A DNA stretch of 64,000 nucleotides from a virus (taxonomy: Duplodnaviria; Heunggongvirae; Uroviricota; Caudoviricetes): IMG/VR virus record IMGVR_UViG_3300032167_000010; one strand, written 5' to 3'. Positions 3,001 to 48,429 of the stretch are shown one piece after another. Each line of letters opens with the position of its first letter. Position 1 is the stretch's first letter. The notes under the pieces were generated by a model that saw only the letters and a program-made list of their open reading frames with translations, made no database searches and was not told where the DNA came from. A program made the translations under genes and the position numbers.

Positions 3001-6000
3001 CTATGGAGTTCCATAACTGTGTAATATTTATTCAAGAAACTGACCCTGACCTATCAACTCACAGAGAGTTTGCTGACACCGACTGGCATTTTTATGCTAT
3101 TGGTAATATTGGTGACTCTAAGAAAACAGATAACACTCGTCTTACAGACCCTAATGATAGATATGAATGCTGTGTTGAAATTATGGACGTAGAACTTCCG
3201 CTATCAGATTTCCCAGTAGATACAATGATAGATGCAATGGGATACAAAGAGGATGAAACTACTCACGAAAGAACTTATATTTGGGCAAAAGACGAAAATT
3301 TAGATAAATTGTATGAATTGGAAGGTGAATTCGTAAAAACTGAAGATACTGAAGTCATACGAAATAAAGCTTACTATACTTATAATGCGGCTACAGACAC
3401 GTACAAGTGCGTTGCTTATCCAAGTAAAAATAATTTAATTAATTTATATGAATTACGTGGCGATTATGTGCTTACAACAGATATAAAGGTAGACCTAACT
3501 AAAAAATATTATATTGATATTCTTGAACACGACGACTTTAGTGAGGATTTTACTTATGGTTGGCGTTATATTTCAGATGATGAAGACCCAGATGTAGTAA
3601 ATACCTGCAAACAAGCTTGGATTGATTTCTATAGATTTGTTACTACTTCAACTGATGAAGAGTTTAAAGCAAACTTGAAAAATTATTTTGTTATTGATTC
3701 TGCTTTATATTATTATTTATTTACTTTAAGATATTGCATGGTAGATAACCGCGCAAAAAATACCTTCTGGCACTATGGTAAAGCTGCTGATGGAACTCAC
3801 AAATGGGACCTTTGCTGGGACTATGATAACGATACTTCACTAGGGTTAAATAACTATGGTAAACAAGTGTATAGATATGGTTTGGAAGATACAGATGTAG
3901 ACGCCGTTGGTGAAGAAGTATTTAGAGAGATGGACAGCACATTTTTCTGCAAAGTGCGTGACTGTTTCCGAGATGAGTTAAAAACTATGTATAATACACT
4001 AGAGTCTCAAAATGCTTGGCATGCTGAAAGCTTTATTAAAGCTTGTGATGATTGGCAAAATGAATTCCCAGAAGAGCTATGGAGACTTGATATTGATAGA
4101 AAGTATATTAGAACATACACTGGATCATTTATAAATGGAAAAGGTGCTGCACAATTCCTTGTTAATATGTCTAATGGTAAAATGAAGTACCACCGTAGAC
4201 AGTGGGAAAGAAGCCAAGAACAGTACATGGCATCTAAATATCAAACATCGACTGCTGGGGAAGACAGCTCAGTACTTAGATGTTCTGTGCCGACAGGAGA
4301 CTTAGCTGTTCAGCCTAATTACAGACTTAAACTTACACCTTATGCGTATATATATTTAAACGTAAAATATGGTACTAATAGTCCAATTCAAGTTAGAGCT
4401 GTTCCAAATGAAGAATTTGAAATTCCATTTACTGGCACTGGTGCTGATATTATTGGTATATATAGTTCATCGTTAATACAAGACTTCGGTGATTTATCAA
4501 CATGTTATGCAACTACAGCTGATACGGCTAAGGCATCTAGAATTAGAAAACTCACTTTAGGTAATGACACTGCTGGATATATTAACCCTGGTTTCACAAC
4601 CCTGACAACCGGAGCTAACCCACTATTAGAAGAATTAAATGTAGAGAATGTAACAGGATTAACGCGATCTTTAGACTTACGTGAACTTATAAATCTTAAA
4701 AGAGTTTATGCTTTTGGCACGAATATTCCTGGAGCTTTATTTGCAGATGGTGGCAAACTAGAATATGTAGAACTTCCTAATGTAACAACAATAAATTTAA
4801 GAAATTTAAGTTATTTAGGTAATGATGGACTTGTACTAGAAAGTTATGACGATGTCGTAGACCTCGTTGTTGAGAACTGTCCTTTAATTAATAAAATTGA
4901 CTTACTTGATAATTGTGTTAATCTTAAAAGACTTAGATTAACTGACATTAACTTCGGTGATATTGAGTATGATGATTTTGCAGAAAAGTTTTTTGGACTC
5001 GGTGGTTTATCTTCTTCAGGTGCTGACCTTGCTAATGCTTATATATCAGGTACATGTCACATAAACAGTCTTACTGGTGAGCAGTACAGTAATTTAAATA
5101 CAAGGTATCCAGAGCTCGATATTGGGTTTGGCACACTAACATCGAAAGTTACGTTTAAATACTTAAATTCTGATGGCAGTGTTGGACAAGAGCTACATAC
5201 TGCTACTGTTGTAAGTAACAATTCTATACTTAATAGTTGTCCAGACCCAGAGCTTACTGTGCCTACATGGCCAGAAAATGATGCGTTTAAGTATGTACAT
5301 GTCGGTTGGTCAAGTACTAAACAAATTAGTAAGGGTGTAAATGACCACGAAGAGGACTATAAAGAATACTTAGAGGAAGATGCTTTACTAAACATAGCAG
5401 GTGATCGCGTATTATACCCAGTATTTAAAGCAGATAGAAAAAGCTATACTGTTTGGTTTACAAATCCTACAGCCAGTGAAGGGACATCTGACTATTTGTT
5501 AAAAACATTTACAATTCCTTATGGTAGTAATGTTAACTACTACACACCATATAATAATCTTGATGAATATTTAGCGGCAGGAATGCCTGTACCTAGTAAA
5601 CTAGATTCAAATGATCCTAGTCTATATGCTTTTACTGGTTGGTACCCTGAATCAACTGTAATACTTGGTGAAACAACCTATAAAGCCCAATTTACTTTTT
5701 TAGATGAAAAGTGGTATGAGCTTAAGAATAGTGAGCTATTTAATCCAAAATATAGTATTTCAGCAGGAACTATGACATTTGACGCATATATGAATACAAA
5801 TAATATAGCAGTTAAGGTTCCCGACACAATATCTTCAAATGGAGTTGATTGTAAAGTAGTTGGCCTTGGATTTTATTACAACACAACTGATATAAAATAT
5901 GAGCATACAGACCTAGAGTTTGTCAGATTACCGAGTCACTTGAAAGAAATATTTGCAAATGGTTTTAAAAACTGTAGCAGTTTAGCTGAAATTGAATTAC

Positions 6001-32608: not shown

Positions 32609-32722
32609 AGAGCCAATGCTTATTTCTTTAGCCTTTTAAGCCGTGTGTCGTAGGTTCGAATCCTACCGTCAGCCTTCGGGTGGCGTAGCTCAGCGGTAGA
32701 GCAACGTAAATATAGCTTGGCC
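32609..32722 (+). ncRNA. Bulged-helix ncRNA copy 2 carrying a circularly permuted tRNA-Lys(UUU)-like domain (YrlA-like)
   Basis: Order is anticodon loop CTTTTAA, T arm, acceptor 3' strand, TTCG loop, acceptor 5' strand, D arm; closed by GCCAA/TTGGC. Confidence 0.85.
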
Positions 32723-32728
32723 AAAAAT

Positions 32729-32816
32729 CGGGGTGTGCTGAAACTGGCGAGACAGGGTGGACTTAAAATCCACTACATTAGAAACGTTGGTGGTTCGAAT
32801 CCACTCACCCCGACCA
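32729..32816 (+). tRNA. trnL: tRNA-Leu(TAA)
   Basis: Cloverleaf, GTGGA-CTTAAAA-TCCAC, long variable arm, CCA. Confidence 0.92.
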
Positions 32817-35428: not shown

Positions 35429-35549
35429 CACGACTTAGTTCATAGGTAAGAGCACCCAAATCCCAGGGAAGAGAGAAGCGTTGAAGCTGATTACTAGCTA
35501 GAATTGGCAGAGCTGAAGAGGAGCATCGTCGTAGGTGCAGTCGTGTCAA
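35429..35549 (+). ncRNA. Free-standing ~120-nt tRNA-like RNA, paralogue of the tRNA-Thr insert
   Basis: CACGACT/AGTCGTG acceptor-like stem, D arm, CCC-AAATCCCA-GGG hairpin, T-like arm. Confidence 0.7.
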
Positions 35550-35825: not shown

Positions 35826-35959
35826 GCGCCTGTAGCTCAGTTGGCAGAGCACGTGACTTGTTTGAGTAGCATAAGTAATGCGATATTATGTGAGTTCAAA
35901 TCTTACCTCAAGCACCATTAATCACGGTGTCCCGAGTTCGAATCTCGGCAGGCGCACCA
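35826..35959 (+). tRNA. trnK: tRNA-Lys(TTT) interrupted at 34/35 by a 58-nt mini-tRNA (35860-35917)
   Basis: Exons of 34 nt and 42 nt give 76 nt with CGTGA-CTT|TTAA-TCACG. Confidence 0.9.
35860..35917 (+). ncRNA. Anticodon-arm-less mini-tRNA nested in tRNA-Lys
   Basis: GTTTGAG/CTCAAGC stem, D arm GCAT-AAGTA-ATGC, T arm GTGAG-TTCAAAT-CTTAC, ACCA. Confidence 0.88.
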
Positions 35960-40642: not shown

Positions 40643-40771
40643 AGCGCTTATTTGAGATAGTCACTAGGACAATAAGAACTGTTGCATAAAGACTATTATG
40701 GTGAACAGTGGTGTAAGCTAAGACAGAGACTTACATAGGTGAGTACCAGATAATCAAATCTCACCTTACCT

Positions 40772-40846
40772 GGCCTCATGGTCAAGCGGTTAAGACGCCG
40801 CCCTCTCACGGCGGAATCAGGAGTTCGATTCTCCTTGGGGCTACCA
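40772..40846 (+). tRNA. trnE: tRNA-Glu(CTC)
   Basis: CCGCC-CTCTCAC-GGCGG, ACCA. Confidence 0.92.
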
Positions 40847-40878
40847 TAAAAACAGTAAATAATTTAAATATATAAATT

Positions 40879-40935
40879 AGAGCCTGAACTTATTTCTGAG
40901 GATAAAAATAAATATGGATTTAACTTAGTCAGGCC
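40879..40935 (+). ncRNA. Bulged-helix ncRNA family, copy 3 (57 nt)
   Basis: AGAGCCTG-A-ACT-TATTTCT ... AGT-CAGGCC. Confidence 0.7.
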
Positions 40936-40951
40936 ATTATAAAAATAACTT

Positions 40952-41027
40952 AGAGCTCATACTTATTTCTATTGAAGATACATATACTCCTGGACGTATG
41001 TGCCAGGCACTAAAGATTAGTTGAGCC
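40952..41027 (+). ncRNA. Bulged-helix ncRNA family, copy 4 (76 nt)
   Basis: AGAGCTCA-T-ACT-TATTTCT ... AGT-TGAGCC. Confidence 0.7.
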
Positions 41028-41047
41028 TGTTATTTTTAATTCAATAT

Positions 41048-41123
41048 TGCAGAGTAGAGAAGTGGTCATCTCGCCGTCCTCATAAGTCGGAAATCATTGG
41101 TTCGAATCCAATCTTTGCACCCA
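41048..41123 (+). tRNA. trnM: tRNA-Met(CAT), initiator-like D arm, subtype uncertain
   Basis: CCGTC-CTCATAA-GTCGG, T arm, CCA. Confidence 0.82.
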
Positions 41124-41127
41124 TTAT

Positions 41128-41322
41128 GCTTCAGTAGCTCAACTGGCAGAGCAGCTGACTTCGTCGATTAGTTTAATTGGGAAAACAACCGAATCCCAGG
41201 TAAAAGACAACCTTTGATAACAATTACGATCAAATTGTTTAGGTTAAGATAAACAAGTTCAAATCTTGTATCGGCGTCCAGTAATCAGCAGGTTGATGGT
41301 TCAATTCCGTTCTGAAGCTCCA
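41128..41322 (+). tRNA. trnT: tRNA-Thr(TGT) interrupted at 34/35 by a 119-nt tRNA-like RNA (41162-41280)
   Basis: Exons of 34 nt and 42 nt give 76 nt with GCTGA-CTT|GTAA-TCAGC; acceptor GCTTCAG/CTGAAGC-TCCA. Confidence 0.9.
41162..41280 (+). ncRNA. tRNA-like RNA nested in tRNA-Thr
   Basis: CGTCGAT/ATCGGCG-TCCA, D arm GTTT..AAAC, T arm ACAAG-TTCAAAT-CTTGT. Confidence 0.87.
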
Positions 41323-41324
41323 CT

Positions 41325-41366
41325 AAAAAGAAAGTTATTCATTTTTTGGGTAGCTTTCTTTTTTTA
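41325..41366 (+). terminator. Terminator closing the tRNA island
   Basis: AAAAAGAAAGTTA/TAGCTTTCTTTTT stem with T tract. Confidence 0.65.
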
Positions 41367-44874: not shown

Positions 44875-44919
44875 ATATTGTATTATATAATATAAAAATA
44901 ATTATTGAGGTTAAATAAT

Positions 44920-46341
44920 ATGAGTTATTATGCTATTGTAACTGCTTTAAAAAACGTGCGTAAGCACCCTAATGCAGACAGACTTCAACTTGCCTCAGTA
45001 TTTGGTAATACTATTTGTGTTGACTTAACTTATACTGATGGCCAACTTGGTGTATATTTTCCAACAGGTGGACAGCTTTCAGTAGCTTTTGCTGAGGCAA
45101 ATAACTTGCTTCGTAAAAAAGATGCCGAAGGAAATAATATCGGTGGATATATGGACCCAGATAAAAGAAATGTAGCGGCTATTAAACTAAGAGGTGAGAA
45201 GTCTGATGGGCTTTTCCTTCCTTTGAATAGTCTCGAAACTTTTGGTGATATTTCTACTTTGAAGGCTGGCGACCGAATCGACGTGTTTAATGGTACAGAG
45301 ATTTGCACCAAGTACATACCTAAAATTAATATTAGACGTGGCAGTTTTTCTGAAGGAAATCGTACTAGAAAAACTAAGGCGCCTATTGCTCCTTTATTTG
45401 CAGAACACGCAGACACTGAACAGCTTGCCTATAACTTGGGTATGTTTAAGGTCGGTGATGAATTAGAGTTTACTCTAAAAATGCACGGGACTTCTCAACG
45501 TACCGGTCATCTTAAAGTTTTGACTGGTTATAAGAGAACTTTTTTTGATAAGCTTTTTAAAAGACCTGGCACACCTATTTATGATTGGGGCTATGTTTCT
45601 GGTACCCGTCGTGTAGTTCTTGATACTTTTGATGGTGGTTTCTACGGCTCAAATGAATTCAGAGAACAACATCATAATGCTTTTGTTGGAAAGCTTTGGA
45701 AGGGTGAAACTGTTTATTACGAAGTAGTTGGTTTTACTCATACTGGTGCGCCTATTATGGGTAATGGTAATAACGAAAAACTTGGTAAAGACTTTGTAAA
45801 GCAGTATGGTAAAGAAACTGTATTTAGCTACGGCTGTAATCCAACTGGTGAGTGCATTATGTGTGGTGAAGATGAACTTAGCGCTTTTAAAGTTCCAGTT
45901 GATGTTCCAATATCAGATACTTATGTTTACCGTATGACAATGACTAATGAAGATGGTGAAATTGTTGAGTATACGCCAGACTTTATAAGGTATCGTTGTG
46001 AACAAATGGGCGTTAAATGTGTTCCTGTTTTCGGTAAAGCTACAATTAGTGAAGATAGACTACATTTTGTAACACAAGACGGTTATGACCATGACTATTT
46101 AATTGGTGACGGTACTATTGGTGATATGGTAGTAAAGTGTGCTGAAGACTTTTATGCTGGACCTGACCCTGTGGGTAAGACACACACTAGAGAAGGTGTT
46201 GTTGTTCGTATTACTAATAGACCTAAATTCGCAGCAGTAAAACATAAAAACTTTGAATTTAAGGTCTTAGAAGGTATCATTTCTGAAAAGCTTACAGAAT
46301 CAACCACAGAAATAGCAGAAGATGTTCTTGCGGAAATGTAA
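44920..46341 (+). CDS. ATP-dependent RNA ligase (DRB0094/Rnl2-like) with N-terminal OB-fold tRNA-binding-like domain
   Basis: N-terminal HPNADRL..IKLRGEKSDG; nucleotidyltransferase motifs TLKMHGTS, YYEVVG, REGVVVR, KHKNFEF. Confidence 0.85.
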   Translation: MSYYAIVTALKNVRKHPNADRLQLASVFGNTICVDLTYTDGQLGVYFPTGGQLSVAFAEANNLLRKKDAEGNNIGGYMDPDKRNVAAIKLRGEKSDGLFLPLNSLETFGDISTLKAGDRIDVFNGTEICTKYIPKINIRRGSFSEGNRTRKTKAPIAPLFAEHADTEQLAYNLGMFKVGDELEFTLKMHGTSQRTGHLKVLTGYKRTFFDKLFKRPGTPIYDWGYVSGTRRVVLDTFDGGFYGSNEFREQHHNAFVGKLWKGETVYYEVVGFTHTGAPIMGNGNNEKLGKDFVKQYGKETVFSYGCNPTGECIMCGEDELSAFKVPVDVPISDTYVYRMTMTNEDGEIVEYTPDFIRYRCEQMGVKCVPVFGKATISEDRLHFVTQDGYDHDYLIGDGTIGDMVVKCAEDFYAGPDPVGKTHTREGVVVRITNRPKFAAVKHKNFEFKVLEGIISEKLTESTTEIAEDVLAEM

Positions 46342-46353
46342 TAAGAGGTTTAT

Positions 46354-46605
46354 ATGAGCAAAAATACTAATAGTACAAATGGTGGAATTGGAGTAAGTAT
46401 GGTGTTATTTTTAATTTTTTTAGTTTTGAAACTTGTTGGGGTTATTAATTGGTCATGGTGGTGGGTGACTTCTCCACTTTGGATTACTACTAGTATCATA
46501 AGTTTAGTAATCGTAGTAGCATATATTTATTGTTGTATTGATGATGCTAAAGAAAGGCGCAGAATCAACAAATCAAGACGAGGTAATAAGAATGAAAAAG
46601 ACTAA
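46354..46605 (+). CDS. Small membrane protein
   Basis: LVLKLVGVINWSWWWVTSPLWI; two transmembrane segments. Confidence 0.7.
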   Translation: MSKNTNSTNGGIGVSMVLFLIFLVLKLVGVINWSWWWVTSPLWITTSIISLVIVVAYIYCCIDDAKERRRINKSRRGNKNEKD

Positions 46606-47401
46606 AGATTCACTTGGCGATCGCATGAAGGAGTTTTATGAGAATCGTTCTAAGATGTACCTCACAAGACGAACTCCTGTAATTATTCGTTTAGATGGTA
46701 AGGCTTTTCACAGCTTTACAAAAGGTTTTAAGAGACCTTACGATGAAATCTTCCATGAAGCAATGAATAACACAATGAAGTATCTTTGTGCTAATATTCA
46801 GGGTTGTAAACTTGGTTATACGCAGTCTGACGAGATTACACTTCTCTTGACTGACTATACTACTCTTACAACTGATGCTTGGTTTGGTTATGGCGTTCAG
46901 AAAATGTGCTCTATTGCAGCTTCGATGGCGACTTTAATGTTTAATAAGTATTTTAGAACTGCCGTTAATCGCCACTTTGAGGGCGCTATTGGCATGGATG
47001 ACTACCACAAGACCATGTGCCTAGCTCGTGATAAAGGCGCAATGTTTGATGCCCGTTGTTTTAATATTCCAAAAGAAGAAGTAACTAACTGCTTTATTTG
47101 GAGGCAGCAAGACGCAACTCGAAATGCTATTCAAATGTTAGGTCAAACTCATTTTTCTCATAGAGAATTACAAGGTAAAAGTTGCAATGATATTCAAGAC
47201 ATGTTGATGTTGCAAAAAGGTATTAATTTTAACGATATGCCTATTGAATTCAAGCGTGGTGTTTGTTGCATTAAAAAAGAAGTTGAATGCACTGATAGAC
47301 TTATAGGTTATAAGCATGATTGGGTAATAGATACAGAGATTCCAATTTTTACTCAGGATAGAAATTATATTGAACAATATTTACTAGAAAAAGAAATCTA
47401 A
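46592..47401 (+). CDS. thg1: tRNA(His) guanylyltransferase Thg1-like protein (3'-5' polymerase)
   Basis: GDRMKEFYE, IRLDGKAFH, YTQSDEI, FDARCF and WRQQDATRN motifs. Confidence 0.9.
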   Translation: MKKTKDSLGDRMKEFYENRSKMYLTRRTPVIIRLDGKAFHSFTKGFKRPYDEIFHEAMNNTMKYLCANIQGCKLGYTQSDEITLLLTDYTTLTTDAWFGYGVQKMCSIAASMATLMFNKYFRTAVNRHFEGAIGMDDYHKTMCLARDKGAMFDARCFNIPKEEVTNCFIWRQQDATRNAIQMLGQTHFSHRELQGKSCNDIQDMLMLQKGINFNDMPIEFKRGVCCIKKEVECTDRLIGYKHDWVIDTEIPIFTQDRNYIEQYLLEKEI

Positions 47402-47420: not shown

Positions 47421-47702
47421 ATGTTTATTATTAGTGGTGGAAGAGGAACTGGTAAAACTAAACTTTTACTTCAACATGCAGCTGATAAAGGCGCTACTAT
47501 TGCGTGTTCAAATCCTATAGAAATGAGAGAACGTGCTCATAGCTACGGAATTGTTGGACTTAATATTATTTCTTATGAAGATGTTGCTATTTTTAAAACG
47601 GCTTATCCTGATAAGGTAGACTCTTTGTATATTCATGATATAAATAAATTTCTTGAAACTAATTTTTCGTGGATATCTGGCTACTCACTAAGCTTTAGTT
47701 GA
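47421..47702 (+). CDS. Short P-loop protein
   Basis: Walker A-like GGRGTGKT at the N-terminus. Confidence 0.6.
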   Translation: MFIISGGRGTGKTKLLLQHAADKGATIACSNPIEMRERAHSYGIVGLNIISYEDVAIFKTAYPDKVDSLYIHDINKFLETNFSWISGYSLSFS

Positions 47703-47712
47703 GGTTAATTTA

Positions 47713-48429
47713 ATGGTATATATTACAGGAGATATTCACGGTAATCCATCAGAAATTATTTACATGGCTCAGCGCTGGGGAATAACTAAAGATGATATTA
47801 TAGTGCTTCTTGGTGACGTTGGAGCGAACTATTATCTTAATAAAAAAGATAATAGAACAAAAGAAGCTTTAAGTAAATATATTGATGCTACCATTCTTTG
47901 TATCCATGGTAATCACGAAGCGCGTCCTGCGATGATTGGGGGATATGAGCTTATGGATTGGAATGGTGGACAAGTATATGTTCAACCAGAGTATCCCAAC
48001 CTGCTCTTCGCTCATGATGGATCCATCTTTAATTTAGAGGGCTTGAGTTGTCTAGTGCTTGGCGGAGCGTACAGTGTAGATAAGTATTATCGTCTTAAAG
48101 AAGGCTATGCCTGGTTTTTTGATGAACAACCATGTAAAGGTATTAAACTTTACGCAGAGCGCCAAATTGCGGAAGCGGGCAATAAAGTAGATGTTGTATT
48201 TTCACACACCTGTCCATTTAAATATGAGCCTATTGAGGTATTTTTACCAGGCATTGATCAATCTACTGTTGATGACAGCACTGAAAAATGGCTTGATGAA
48301 ATCGAAAATAAACTTGATTATAAAGCCTGGTACTGTGGACATTGGCATATAAACAAACGTATAGATAAAATGCACTTTTTATTTAATACGGTTGAAATAT
48401 TAGATGATATTAAAGATAAAGGAAATTAA
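47713..48429 (+). CDS. Calcineurin-like metallophosphoesterase
   Basis: GDIHG, GDVG, GNHE, FSHT and GHWH motifs. Confidence 0.88.
   Translation: MVYITGDIHGNPSEIIYMAQRWGITKDDIIVLLGDVGANYYLNKKDNRTKEALSKYIDATILCIHGNHEARPAMIGGYELMDWNGGQVYVQPEYPNLLFAHDGSIFNLEGLSCLVLGGAYSVDKYYRLKEGYAWFFDEQPCKGIKLYAERQIAEAGNKVDVVFSHTCPFKYEPIEVFLPGIDQSTVDDSTEKWLDEIENKLDYKAWYCGHWHINKRIDKMHFLFNTVEILDDIKDKGN

What the first reader, a model, noticed from the sequence alone, without database searches (positions are those of the whole stretch)
41128..41322. Second nested case: tRNA-Thr(UGU) split at the same 34/35 position by an unrelated 119-nt tRNA-like RNA
Seen: exons 41128-41161 and 41281-41322 (34 + 42 = 76 nt) give GCTGA-CTT|GTAA-TCAGC with G1-C72 and C2-G71, matching the other tRNA-Thr. 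The insert again starts at its acceptor +1 and ends at TCCA. Two different inserts at an identical site, both after a wobble U34, argue against chance or misassembly. Inference: either a shared splicing route, or a fossil of repair in which anticodon-nuclease-cut tRNA was ligated to a mature small RNA and retro-copied into the genome.
Basis: partly seen in the sequence, partly recalled or inferred. Interest (0 to 1): 0.93.

Follow-up and report, generated by a model that had tools for sequence, protein, structure and literature searches.

The report
tRNA-shaped intron splitting phage tRNA-Thr
A giant gut phage's threonine tRNA gene is cut in two, inside its anticodon, by a 119-base tRNA look-alike that runs exactly from a tRNA 5' end to a CCA tail, so it is probably removed by ordinary tRNA-trimming enzymes and the halves rejoined by the phage's RNA ligase, a splicing route nobody has yet demonstrated.

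Summary
Window 41128-41161 plus 41281-41322 join into a canonical 76-nt tRNA-Thr(UGU). The 119 nt between them (41162-41280) is a tRNA-like RNA with a 7-bp acceptor stem, D arm, T arm and TCCA end.

- **Empty site:** a syntenic relative (L100) carries the same Met-Thr gene pair with Thr uninterrupted. The alignment gap is exactly 41162-41280.
- **Second occurrence:** another phage (L155) has a homologous 96-nt insert at the same site.
- **Insert family:** the insert belongs to a covarying family of mostly free-standing tRNA-like RNAs, with a free copy at 35429-35549.
- **Wider pattern:** about 40 distinct nested tRNA genes turned up in related viral contigs. Nearly all inserts follow a U inside the anticodon, and 32 of 34 end in CCA when that was not imposed.
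- **Function:** no locus also holds an intact gene with the same anticodon.
- **Ligase:** all 10 nested-bearing contigs tested encode an ATP-dependent RNA ligase.

Best reading: RNase P cuts 5' of the insert, an endonuclease cuts after CCA, and the phage ligase seals. Splicing itself is not shown.

Related introns were noted in Lak megaphages (Devoto 2019) and jumbo phages (2026). This scan has already reported the class on at least 31 other genomes. The "repair fossil" reading is not supported.

The parts
41128..41161 (+). 5' exon of tRNA-Thr(UGU): acceptor 5' strand, D arm, anticodon stem 5' strand, C32 U33 U34
   Evidence: It aligns to L100:10475-10508 of the intact orthologue.
41162..41280 (+). 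119-nt tRNA-shaped insert (intron): 7-bp acceptor, D arm, invariant CC-GAAUCCCA-GG mini-hairpin, long variable hairpin, T arm, TCCA end
   Evidence: It is a member of covariance model R1 at 123.7 bits, as a training sequence. A homologous 96-nt insert lies at L155:1073-1168.
41281..41322 (+). 3' exon of tRNA-Thr(UGU): G35 U36 A37 A38, anticodon stem 3' strand, variable loop, T arm, acceptor 3' strand, U73, CCA
   Evidence: A close relative's exon 2 (L155, query positions 130-171) matches annotated tRNA-Thr genes of isolated phages at 86-88% identity.
41325..41363 (+). Terminator-like hairpin plus T run closing the tRNA array
41048..41123 (+). tRNA-Met(CAU) 4 nt upstream. The Met-Thr pair is syntenic with L100:10392-10550.
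35826..35959 (+). The other nested gene: tRNA-Lys(UUU), exons 35826-35859 and 35918-35959, split at 34/35 by a 58-nt mini-tRNA (35860-35917, ends ACCA)
35429..35549 (+). Free-standing paralogue of the Thr insert (same RNA family, ends TCAA, no flanking tRNA halves)
   Evidence: It scores 103.9 bits against R1, as a training sequence. Orthologues ending TCCA lie at L147:6793-6910 and L150:56-173.
44905..46341 (+). ATP-dependent RNA ligase with an N-terminal OB domain and a nucleotidyltransferase domain (Rnl5/DraRnl-like)
   Evidence: phrog_968 at E 6e-61. TIGR02306 at E 2e-13, below its cut-off. A profile hits Naegleria RNA ligase 5COT through the motif I lysine and T4 Rnl2. K192-M-H-G195 is invariant.
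46538..47401 (+). Thg1-like 3'-5' nucleotidyl transferase
   Evidence: PF04446 at E 2.4e-31 and phrog_4717 at E 1.7e-93.
47421..47702 (+). 93-aa ORF with a Walker A motif (GGRGTGKT). Its role is unknown; it is a possible kinase remnant.
   Evidence: The motif is read directly from the translation. Only weak family hits were found.
47713..48429 (+). Calcineurin-like metallophosphoesterase, a possible RNA 3'-end healing enzyme
   Evidence: PF00149 at E 7.5e-13 and phrog_1649.

Best explanation
This is a working tRNA-Thr(UGU) gene carrying a tRNA-shaped intron. The array is transcribed as usual. The insert folds as an independent acceptor/T-arm unit with a 3' TCCA tail, so host RNase P cuts at its +1 (41161|41162), leaving exon 1 with U34-3'OH. 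A second endonuclease cuts right after the CCA (41280|41281), leaving exon 2 with a 5' phosphate. This enzyme would be RNase Z-like or still unknown. The two halves stay paired in the outer cloverleaf, and the phage ATP-dependent RNA ligase (44905-46341) seals the nick in the anticodon loop. The products are a 76-nt tRNA-Thr and a free 119-nt tRNA-like RNA, which is itself a member of a functional RNA family. Shown: the anatomy, the recurrence, the empty-site allele, the conservation and the ligase co-occurrence. Inferred: every enzymatic step.
For: - **Boundaries:** the insert runs from acceptor +1 to CCA, and the gap against the intact orthologue is exactly the insert.
- **RNase P minimal substrate is what is conserved.** All 32 inserts found with only a 7/7 acceptor required also have a 5/5 T stem stacked on it, against 7% of background candidates. 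32 of 34 end in CCA when that was not imposed. Inserts range from 46-nt minihelices to a full tRNA(CUA) cloverleaf inside tRNA-Ile.
- **Position -1:** it is U in 39 of 39 CCA-ended cases. Ordinary tRNAs in the same loci have U at -1 in 226 of 302, and 23 of 25 in the window.
- **Outer gene behaves as functional.** The exons are 60/76 identical to L100's intact gene, and 14 of the 16 differences form 7 compensated pairs. Of 57 nested genes, 0 share a locus with an intact gene of the same anticodon. ACA and AAA are heavily used codons, at 30 and 48 per 1000.
- **Gain and loss:** L155 has the homologous intron at the same site in exons nearly identical to L100's intact gene.
- **Ligase:** 10 of 10 nested-bearing contigs encode an ATP-dependent RNA ligase, either phrog_968/PF09414 or Rnl1 PF09511.
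- **Lak phage comparison:** in Lak phage tRNA-Thr, whose genes lack encoded CCA, my reading of Table S6 puts the 3' splice site at the inner tRNA's discriminator, the RNase Z site.
Against: - No RNA data show a spliced junction.
- The cut after CCA has no assigned enzyme. From general knowledge, Bacillus-type RNase Z is inhibited by CCA, and exonucleolytic 3' trimming would destroy exon 2.
- Rnl2/Rnl5-type ligases prefer nicks in duplexes, not loops (from the literature, not tested here).
- The ligase control set is tiny: 1 of 2 near-complete controls also has a ligase, and the 2 fragment controls were not searched with every ligase family.
- No insert follows U33, which a pure RNase P preference does not explain.
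- One nested Thr gene (L080:4426-4490) has G at -1 and ends CAA.
- The neighbouring phosphoesterase hints at 2',3'-cyclic-phosphate chemistry, not RNase P/Z-type ends.
Confidence: 0.55

Rival explanations
1. The gene is spliced, but by a different cut-and-heal route. [quoted passage not shown] The phosphoesterase (47713-48429) and a kinase heal them, and the ligase seals, as in T4 Pnkp/Rnl1 repair. The tRNA shape of the insert would then serve its own function, not excision.
For: The ligase, Thg1-like protein, P-loop ORF and metallophosphoesterase lie together 3.6-7 kb downstream. All junctions lie inside the anticodon, where known anticodon nucleases cut (general knowledge). No insert follows U33.
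Against: It does not explain why inserts shrink to just acceptor, T arm and CCA. It does not explain why boundaries coincide with mature tRNA ends, or why -1 U matches ordinary RNase P sites. No convincing kinase or endonuclease was found in the window.
Confidence: 0.2
2. The gene is not spliced. The outer tRNA is only a scaffold and processing platform that releases the inner tRNA-like RNA. The two halves are discarded, or act as a nicked tRNA or tRNA-half decoy for host anticodon nucleases.
For: The inner RNA belongs to a family that also exists as free genes, so it has a function of its own. A true suppressor tRNA is nested in L015/L128. No RNA evidence for the joined form exists.
Against: Split genes are always the only gene for that anticodon in their locus, 0 of 57 duplicated, while relatives carry the intact gene in the same slot. 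The joined anticodon loops are always canonical 7-nt loops with U33 and a purine at 37. Ligases are present in 10 of 10 contigs. Most inserts are 46-50-nt minihelices with no obvious function of their own.
Confidence: 0.15
3. The gene is a dead relic: a pseudogene made by a one-off insertion, or a retro-copied repair product, with no current function.
For: The insert boundaries equal mature RNA termini, as expected if a mature small RNA was ligated into a broken anticodon loop. One related case has a CAA end and G at -1 and may be decaying.
Against: All 21 outer stem pairs are intact despite 21% exon divergence from the orthologue. The same intron sits at the same site in a second, diverged phage. 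The design recurs in about 40 genes of five anticodons. The split gene is a sole copy for a frequent codon. No reverse transcriptase was found in five near-complete related genomes.
Confidence: 0.05

Closest known systems
'Enigmatic' introns in tRNA genes of Lak megaphages (Devoto et al. 2019, PMC6784885), and the note that jumbo-phage tRNA introns 'could encode another tRNA' (PMC13037316, 2026)
   Same: These are phage tRNA genes interrupted in the anticodon loop, including a tRNA-Thr(TGT). The intron holds a tRNA-like fold. Presence or absence differs between related phages. No mechanism is known.
   Different: By their Table S6, Lak introns lie 3' of the anticodon, carry about 30 nt ahead of the inner tRNA-like part and have no CCA. 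Here the insert splits the anticodon itself after U34 and is exactly the inner RNA from +1 to CCA. There is no sequence similarity.
Group I introns in bacterial and plastid tRNA anticodon loops (e.g. tRNA-Leu(UAA), inserted between U34 and A35; from general knowledge)
   Same: They occupy the same place in the tRNA (34/35), a U precedes the 5' splice site, and they are mobile with a patchy distribution.
   Different: The window insert is 119 nt and the family ranges from 46 to 123 nt, with no group I core. The last base is A of CCA, not the required G. No Rfam intron or ribozyme hit was found. The insert cannot be self-splicing by that chemistry.
Archaeal and eukaryal protein-spliced tRNA introns (bulge-helix-bulge, EndA/Sen endonuclease, RtcB or Trl1 ligase), including the archaeal pre-tRNA-Trp intron that encodes a box C/D RNA
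   Same: They follow the same logic: protein enzymes cut at structure-defined sites, a ligase joins the halves, and the intron can itself be a functional RNA.
   Different: There is no bulge-helix-bulge here: the junctions sit in a 3 x 8-nt internal loop next to a 7-bp helix. The position is inside the anticodon, not 37/38. The host is bacterial, and the recognition element is a tRNA acceptor/T-arm module.
Phage T4 tRNA repair (host PrrC cuts tRNA-Lys in the anticodon loop; T4 Pnkp and Rnl1 heal and seal; from general knowledge)
   Same: A phage RNA ligase acts on a tRNA broken in the anticodon loop. U34 tRNAs are concerned. Rnl1-family ligases are present in four of the ten nested-bearing contigs tested.
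   Different: In T4 the break is damage inflicted by the host. Here the break would be programmed by the gene's own architecture, and the ends expected from RNase P need no healing.
Non-decoding tRNA-like small RNAs such as YrlA (Y RNA-like) and T4 species 1 and 2 RNAs
   Same: The inner 119-nt RNA and its free paralogues have acceptor, D and T arms but no anticodon arm.
   Different: There is no Rfam match. The family is defined by an invariant CC-RAAUCCCA-GG hairpin. Two members are nested in tRNA-Thr.

Membership tests
tRNA (outer gene, tRNA-Thr UGU) | Cloverleaf with a 7-nt anticodon loop, U33 and a purine at 37 once the insert is removed | tested here: met
   ARAGORN calls a 76-nt tRNA-Thr(tgt). 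Rfam RF00005 scores 45.3 bits against a gathering score of 29, even with the insert.
tRNA (outer gene, tRNA-Thr UGU) | Thr identity elements G1-C72, C2-G71, G35 and U36 (from the literature, recalled) | tested here: met
   Read from the sequence. The window's tRNA-Thr(GGU) has the same ends. A close relative's exon 2 (L155) matches annotated phage tRNA-Thr genes.
tRNA (outer gene, tRNA-Thr UGU) | An uninterrupted orthologue exists at the syntenic position | tested here: met
   L100:10475-10550 lies after tRNA-Met, and the alignment gap equals the insert.
tRNA-shaped introns of large phages (Devoto 2019 type) | A phage tRNA gene interrupted in the anticodon loop by an insert containing a tRNA-like fold | tested here: met
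tRNA-shaped introns of large phages (Devoto 2019 type) | The same gene occurs with and without the insert in related phages | tested here: met
   The window and L155 carry the insert; L100 does not.
tRNA-shaped introns of large phages (Devoto 2019 type) | The intron lies 3' of the anticodon, with extra sequence ahead of the inner tRNA and no CCA (Lak Table S6) | tested here: not met
   Here the anticodon is split at 34/35 and the insert is exactly +1 to CCA. I therefore file it as a variant.
Group I intron | Conserved catalytic core, a G as the last intron base, length of about 200 nt or more | tested here: not met
   No Rfam hit at E up to 1. The last base is A in all CCA-ended cases. The length is 119 nt.
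Bulge-helix-bulge intron | Two 3-nt bulges separated by a 4-bp helix at the splice sites | tested here: not met
   The predicted fold places the junctions in a 3 x 8-nt internal loop beside a 7-bp helix.
Bacterial RNase P substrate (inner element) | A 7-bp acceptor stem stacked on a T stem-loop, a single-stranded 3' NCCA, and preferably U at -1 | tested here: met
Bacterial RNase P substrate (inner element) | Actual cleavage at +1 by RNase P | not testable with these tools
   This needs an enzyme assay or 5'-end mapping.
ATP-dependent RNA ligase, Rnl5/DraRnl-like (44905-46341) | N-terminal OB domain plus a nucleotidyltransferase domain with a motif I lysine (KxxG) | tested here: met
   PF21189 OB domain. 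The profile aligns to Naegleria RNA ligase 5COT through KLDG/KMHG. K192 and G195 are invariant.
ATP-dependent RNA ligase, Rnl5/DraRnl-like (44905-46341) | Score above the curated family cut-off (TIGR02306) | tested here: not met
   It scores 49.7 bits against a cut-off of 151. It is a distant relative, best placed in phrog_968 (E 6e-61).
AAUCCCA-loop tRNA-like RNA family (defined here, model R1) | Acceptor, D and T helices kept by covariation, plus an invariant CC-RAAUCCCA-GG hairpin followed by AARAGA | tested here: met
   Nine sequences were aligned. 13 of 19 pairs show changes on both sides, and no acceptor pair is broken.

The most novel reading that the evidence does not exclude
These inserts are introns that both splice and spread at the RNA level using only tRNA-processing enzymes and a ligase. 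RNase P and a CCA-end endonuclease release a mature tRNA-like RNA. The phage ligase can also run the reverse path, stitching that RNA into a tRNA whose anticodon was broken after a U, for example by a host anticodon nuclease. The product is then copied back into DNA or fixed by recombination. That would be a third, protein-only and ribozyme-free kind of mobile intron in bacteria and their viruses.
Probability: 0.1. Interest if true: 0.95.

Novelty: new variant of a known kind. Interest (0 to 1): 0.72.

Why it matters
Bacteria and their phages are thought to have only self-splicing tRNA introns. If these inserts are removed by RNase P, a 3'-end endonuclease and an RNA ligase, that is a new splicing pathway built entirely from housekeeping tRNA enzymes. 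It would also give a physiological job to the many unexplained phage RNA ligases. The pathway would explain the 'enigmatic' tRNA introns reported in megaphages. It shows that standard tRNA finders miss essential phage tRNAs: here the only Lys(UUU) and Thr(UGU) genes. It also offers a simple, testable substrate, a 195-nt transcript. The link to a family of free tRNA-like RNAs suggests how such introns arise.

Tried and rejected
- **RNA evidence:** no RNA holder is listed for the array. RNA runs found with 40750-41350 hold only 4-7% of its words, so expression and splicing could not be examined.
- **Whole genome:** none is held for this window.
- **Isolated phages:** no record carries either nested gene or the relatives' nested genes. 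Only ordinary tRNA similarity was found.
- **Literature:** searches for tRNA-like or nested introns with RNase P and ligase found no mechanistic paper.
- **nhmmer:** the 119-nt insert hit the free copy only weakly (E 0.73). Homology was established instead by a motif scan and a structure-aware alignment.
- **Model R1:** it found no further members in the 75 loci searched.
- **Single-sequence ligase search:** it missed divergent ligases in G006-G009, which the phrog_968 profile then found.
- **Rejected on anatomy:** group I intron, bulge-helix-bulge intron and small ribozymes.
- **ARAGORN intron mode:** its calls of Arg(tct) for this gene and Thr(tgt) for the Lys gene are mis-parses, shown by the empty-site alignment and the inner boundaries.
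- **Other proteins in the window:** no RNase Z-like nuclease, kinase family or reverse transcriptase was recognised.
- **MAFFT alignment A3:** it put inner acceptor strands out of register, so pair counts were made per sequence in a script instead.

Full report
**What is there.** The window is part of an uncultivated large phage. It encodes BspA-type LRR tail proteins, CHAP and amidase lysins, and a GyrB-like protein. It has a tRNA array at 32.7-41.3 kb. Standard ARAGORN finds 25 tRNAs and nothing at 41128-41322.

Joining 41128-41161 to 41281-41322 gives a 76-nt tRNA-Thr(UGU) with every stem paired and anticodon loop CUUGUAA. Rfam's tRNA model scores the interrupted locus at 45.3 bits, above its gathering score of 29. 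No intron or ribozyme family matches. G1-C72, C2-G71 and U73 match the array's tRNA-Thr(GGU). A terminator-like hairpin follows at 41325-41363.

The 119-nt insert starts with a 7-bp acceptor helix. It has a D arm, a 5-bp T stem with loop UUCAAAU, and ends UCCA.

**The site is exact and real.** L100 is a 233-kb relative that is syntenic from the upstream 660-aa gene onward. It has the same tRNA-Met/tRNA-Thr(UGU) pair, but its Thr gene is uninterrupted. The pairwise alignment has one gap, equal to 41162-41280. The flanking bases allow no alternative placement.

Contigs from four faecal metagenome runs, one of them not flagged as a possible source, cover both nested genes without a single difference or indel. 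ARAGORN's intron mode mis-parses the gene as Arg(tct).

**It is one of a recurrent class.** Using the phage's RNA ligase I fetched 45 related viral loci. Two pattern scans added 98 more.

A scanner asked only for an inner 7-bp acceptor helix, a T stem and CCA. It then required ARAGORN to call a tRNA across the splice. It found 58 nested genes in real sequence, about 40 of them distinct, and 0 among 5059 candidates in reversed sequence.

- The outer genes are Leu(UAA), Lys(UUU), Gln(UUG), Ile(UAU) and Thr(UGU).
- The junction is after position 34 in most, after 35 in some Lys and Gln genes, and after 36 in one Ile gene.
- The base before the insert is U in all 39 CCA-ended cases.
- For Ile(UAU), junctions occur after U34 and U36 but not after A35.
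- When CCA was not imposed, 32 of 34 inserts still end in CCA and two end in CAA. One of the CAA cases has G at -1.
- All 32 inserts found without a T-stem requirement have a perfect 5-bp T stem next to the acceptor strand, against 7% of background candidates.
- Inserts range from 46-nt minihelices to a complete tRNA(CUA) cloverleaf inside tRNA-Ile.

**The insert belongs to an RNA family of its own.** A motif shared by the insert and a free element at 35429-35549 retrieved further members from viral contigs. Nine sequences align with an invariant CC-RAAUCCCA-GG hairpin followed by AARAGA. Their acceptor, D and T helices covary: 13 of 19 pairs changed on both sides, and no acceptor pair is broken. 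Most members are free-standing genes.

Two members are nested, both in tRNA-Thr(UGU) at 34/35: the window's, and a 96-nt version at L155:1073-1168. L155's exons are almost identical to L100's intact gene. The intron has therefore been gained or precisely lost among close alleles. The window's other insert (58 nt, in Lys) belongs to a different family. That family also occurs in Leu and Gln genes of L100.

**The split gene looks functional.**
- Against L100's intact gene the joined exons are 60/76 identical. Fourteen of the 16 differences form seven compensated base pairs, and all 21 stem pairs are kept.
- In 57 locus-by-anticodon cases, no locus also has an intact gene with the same anticodon. 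Relatives carry the intact gene in that slot.
- In the window, the interrupted genes are the only Lys(UUU) and Thr(UGU) genes.
- AAA and ACA are used 48 and 30 times per 1000 codons.

**Likely mechanism (inferred).** What is conserved in the inserts is the minimal bacterial RNase P substrate: an acceptor helix stacked on a T arm, plus a 3' NCCA. The U at -1 matches ordinary tRNAs of the same loci, which have U at -1 in 226 of 302 cases and in 23 of 25 in the window.

RNase P would leave exon 1 with a 3'-OH. A cut directly after CCA would leave exon 2 with a 5'-phosphate. Those ends are what ATP-dependent RNA ligases join.

The window encodes such a ligase 3.6 kb downstream. It matches phrog_968 at E 6e-61 and is a distant DraRnl/Rnl5 relative with an invariant motif I lysine. 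Next to it lie a Thg1-like enzyme, a small P-loop ORF and a metallophosphoesterase.

All ten nested-bearing contigs tested have an ATP-dependent RNA ligase. Six have the phrog_968/PF09414 type and four have T4 Rnl1 type. Among four chance-hit control contigs one had a ligase, but two controls are fragments that were not searched with every ligase family. This association is therefore only suggestive.

The weak link is the cut after CCA, for which no enzyme can be named. The absence of inserts after U33 is also unexplained.

**Prior knowledge.** Devoto et al. 2019 reported "enigmatic" introns in Lak megaphage tRNAs. These include a tRNA-Thr(TGT) whose intron may encode a tRNA. A 2026 jumbo-phage survey repeats that such introns "could encode another tRNA". 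Neither paper proposes a mechanism.

By their Table S6 the Lak introns lie 3' of the anticodon, have about 30 nt ahead of the inner tRNA and lack CCA. By my reading, the Thr intron ends at the inner discriminator, which is the RNase Z site. The present design is a distinct variant: the anticodon itself is split after a U, and the insert is exactly +1 to CCA.

Earlier agents of this scan have reported the same class on at least 31 other genomes and proposed the same route. Those notes gave me the Devoto lead, which I checked.

A shared splicing route is the better-supported half. A dead repair fossil is contradicted by the conservation data. Five near-complete related genomes have no RVT_1 reverse transcriptase. 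RNA-level insertion remains possible as a historical origin, because the boundaries equal mature RNA termini.

**Limits.** No RNA data exist for this phage. No cultured phage carries the element. Every enzymatic step is therefore inference.

Noticed in passing
L015:411-587 (also L128:2702-2855, minus strand): A complete cloverleaf tRNA with anticodon CUA (amber-suppressor type, 77 nt, ends ACCA) is nested inside tRNA-Ile(UAU), after U36. It is a true tRNA within a tRNA. Free tRNA(CUA) genes occur in L006, L024 and L030, which hints at TAG recoding in some relatives.
   Followed up: partly
window 32626-32729: A weak Rfam match to YrlA (Y RNA-like) scores 35.7 bits against a gathering score of 69. 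It lies directly upstream of tRNA-Leu(UAA). Earlier notes describe a four-copy Y-RNA-like family in this array.
   Followed up: no
window 47421-47702: A 93-aa ORF with a Walker A motif (GGRGTGKT) lies between the Thg1-like gene and the metallophosphoesterase. With the ligase this resembles a split kinase-phosphatase-ligase RNA repair set, but no kinase family matched.
   Followed up: partly
L100:3273-3427, 4498-4634 and 5134-5332: The syntenic relative has its Leu(UAA), Gln(UUG) and Lys(UUU) genes interrupted (68, 63 and 123 nt), whereas the window's Leu(UAA) and Gln(UUG) are intact and its Thr is interrupted. Insert occupancy is shuffled gene by gene between two related arrays.
   Followed up: partly
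L034:3146-3536 and L009:15226-15604: Three consecutive units of about 120-130 nt are called intron-bearing tRNAs by ARAGORN and match model R1 weakly (35 and 31 bits). They may be another family of oversized tRNA-like RNAs.
   Followed up: no
window 41281-41312, in run X1 (table 7): One short metagenome contig matches exon 2 from 41281 onward. Directly before it the contig carries ...AGAGCAGCTGATTT, which is exon 1's end with one change and no insert. Its acceptor strand then diverges. It looks like an intact tRNA-Thr(UGU) of another organism in the same sample.
   Followed up: no
L080:4392-4530: This is a nested tRNA-Thr(UGU) whose 65-nt insert follows G35 and ends ACAA instead of CCA. It is the only exception to the after-U rule, and may be decaying or processed differently.
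   Followed up: no
all loci: Ordinary tRNA genes in these phages have a strong leader consensus: A at -2 (72%) and U at -1 (75%). About 74% encode their CCA.
   Followed up: yes
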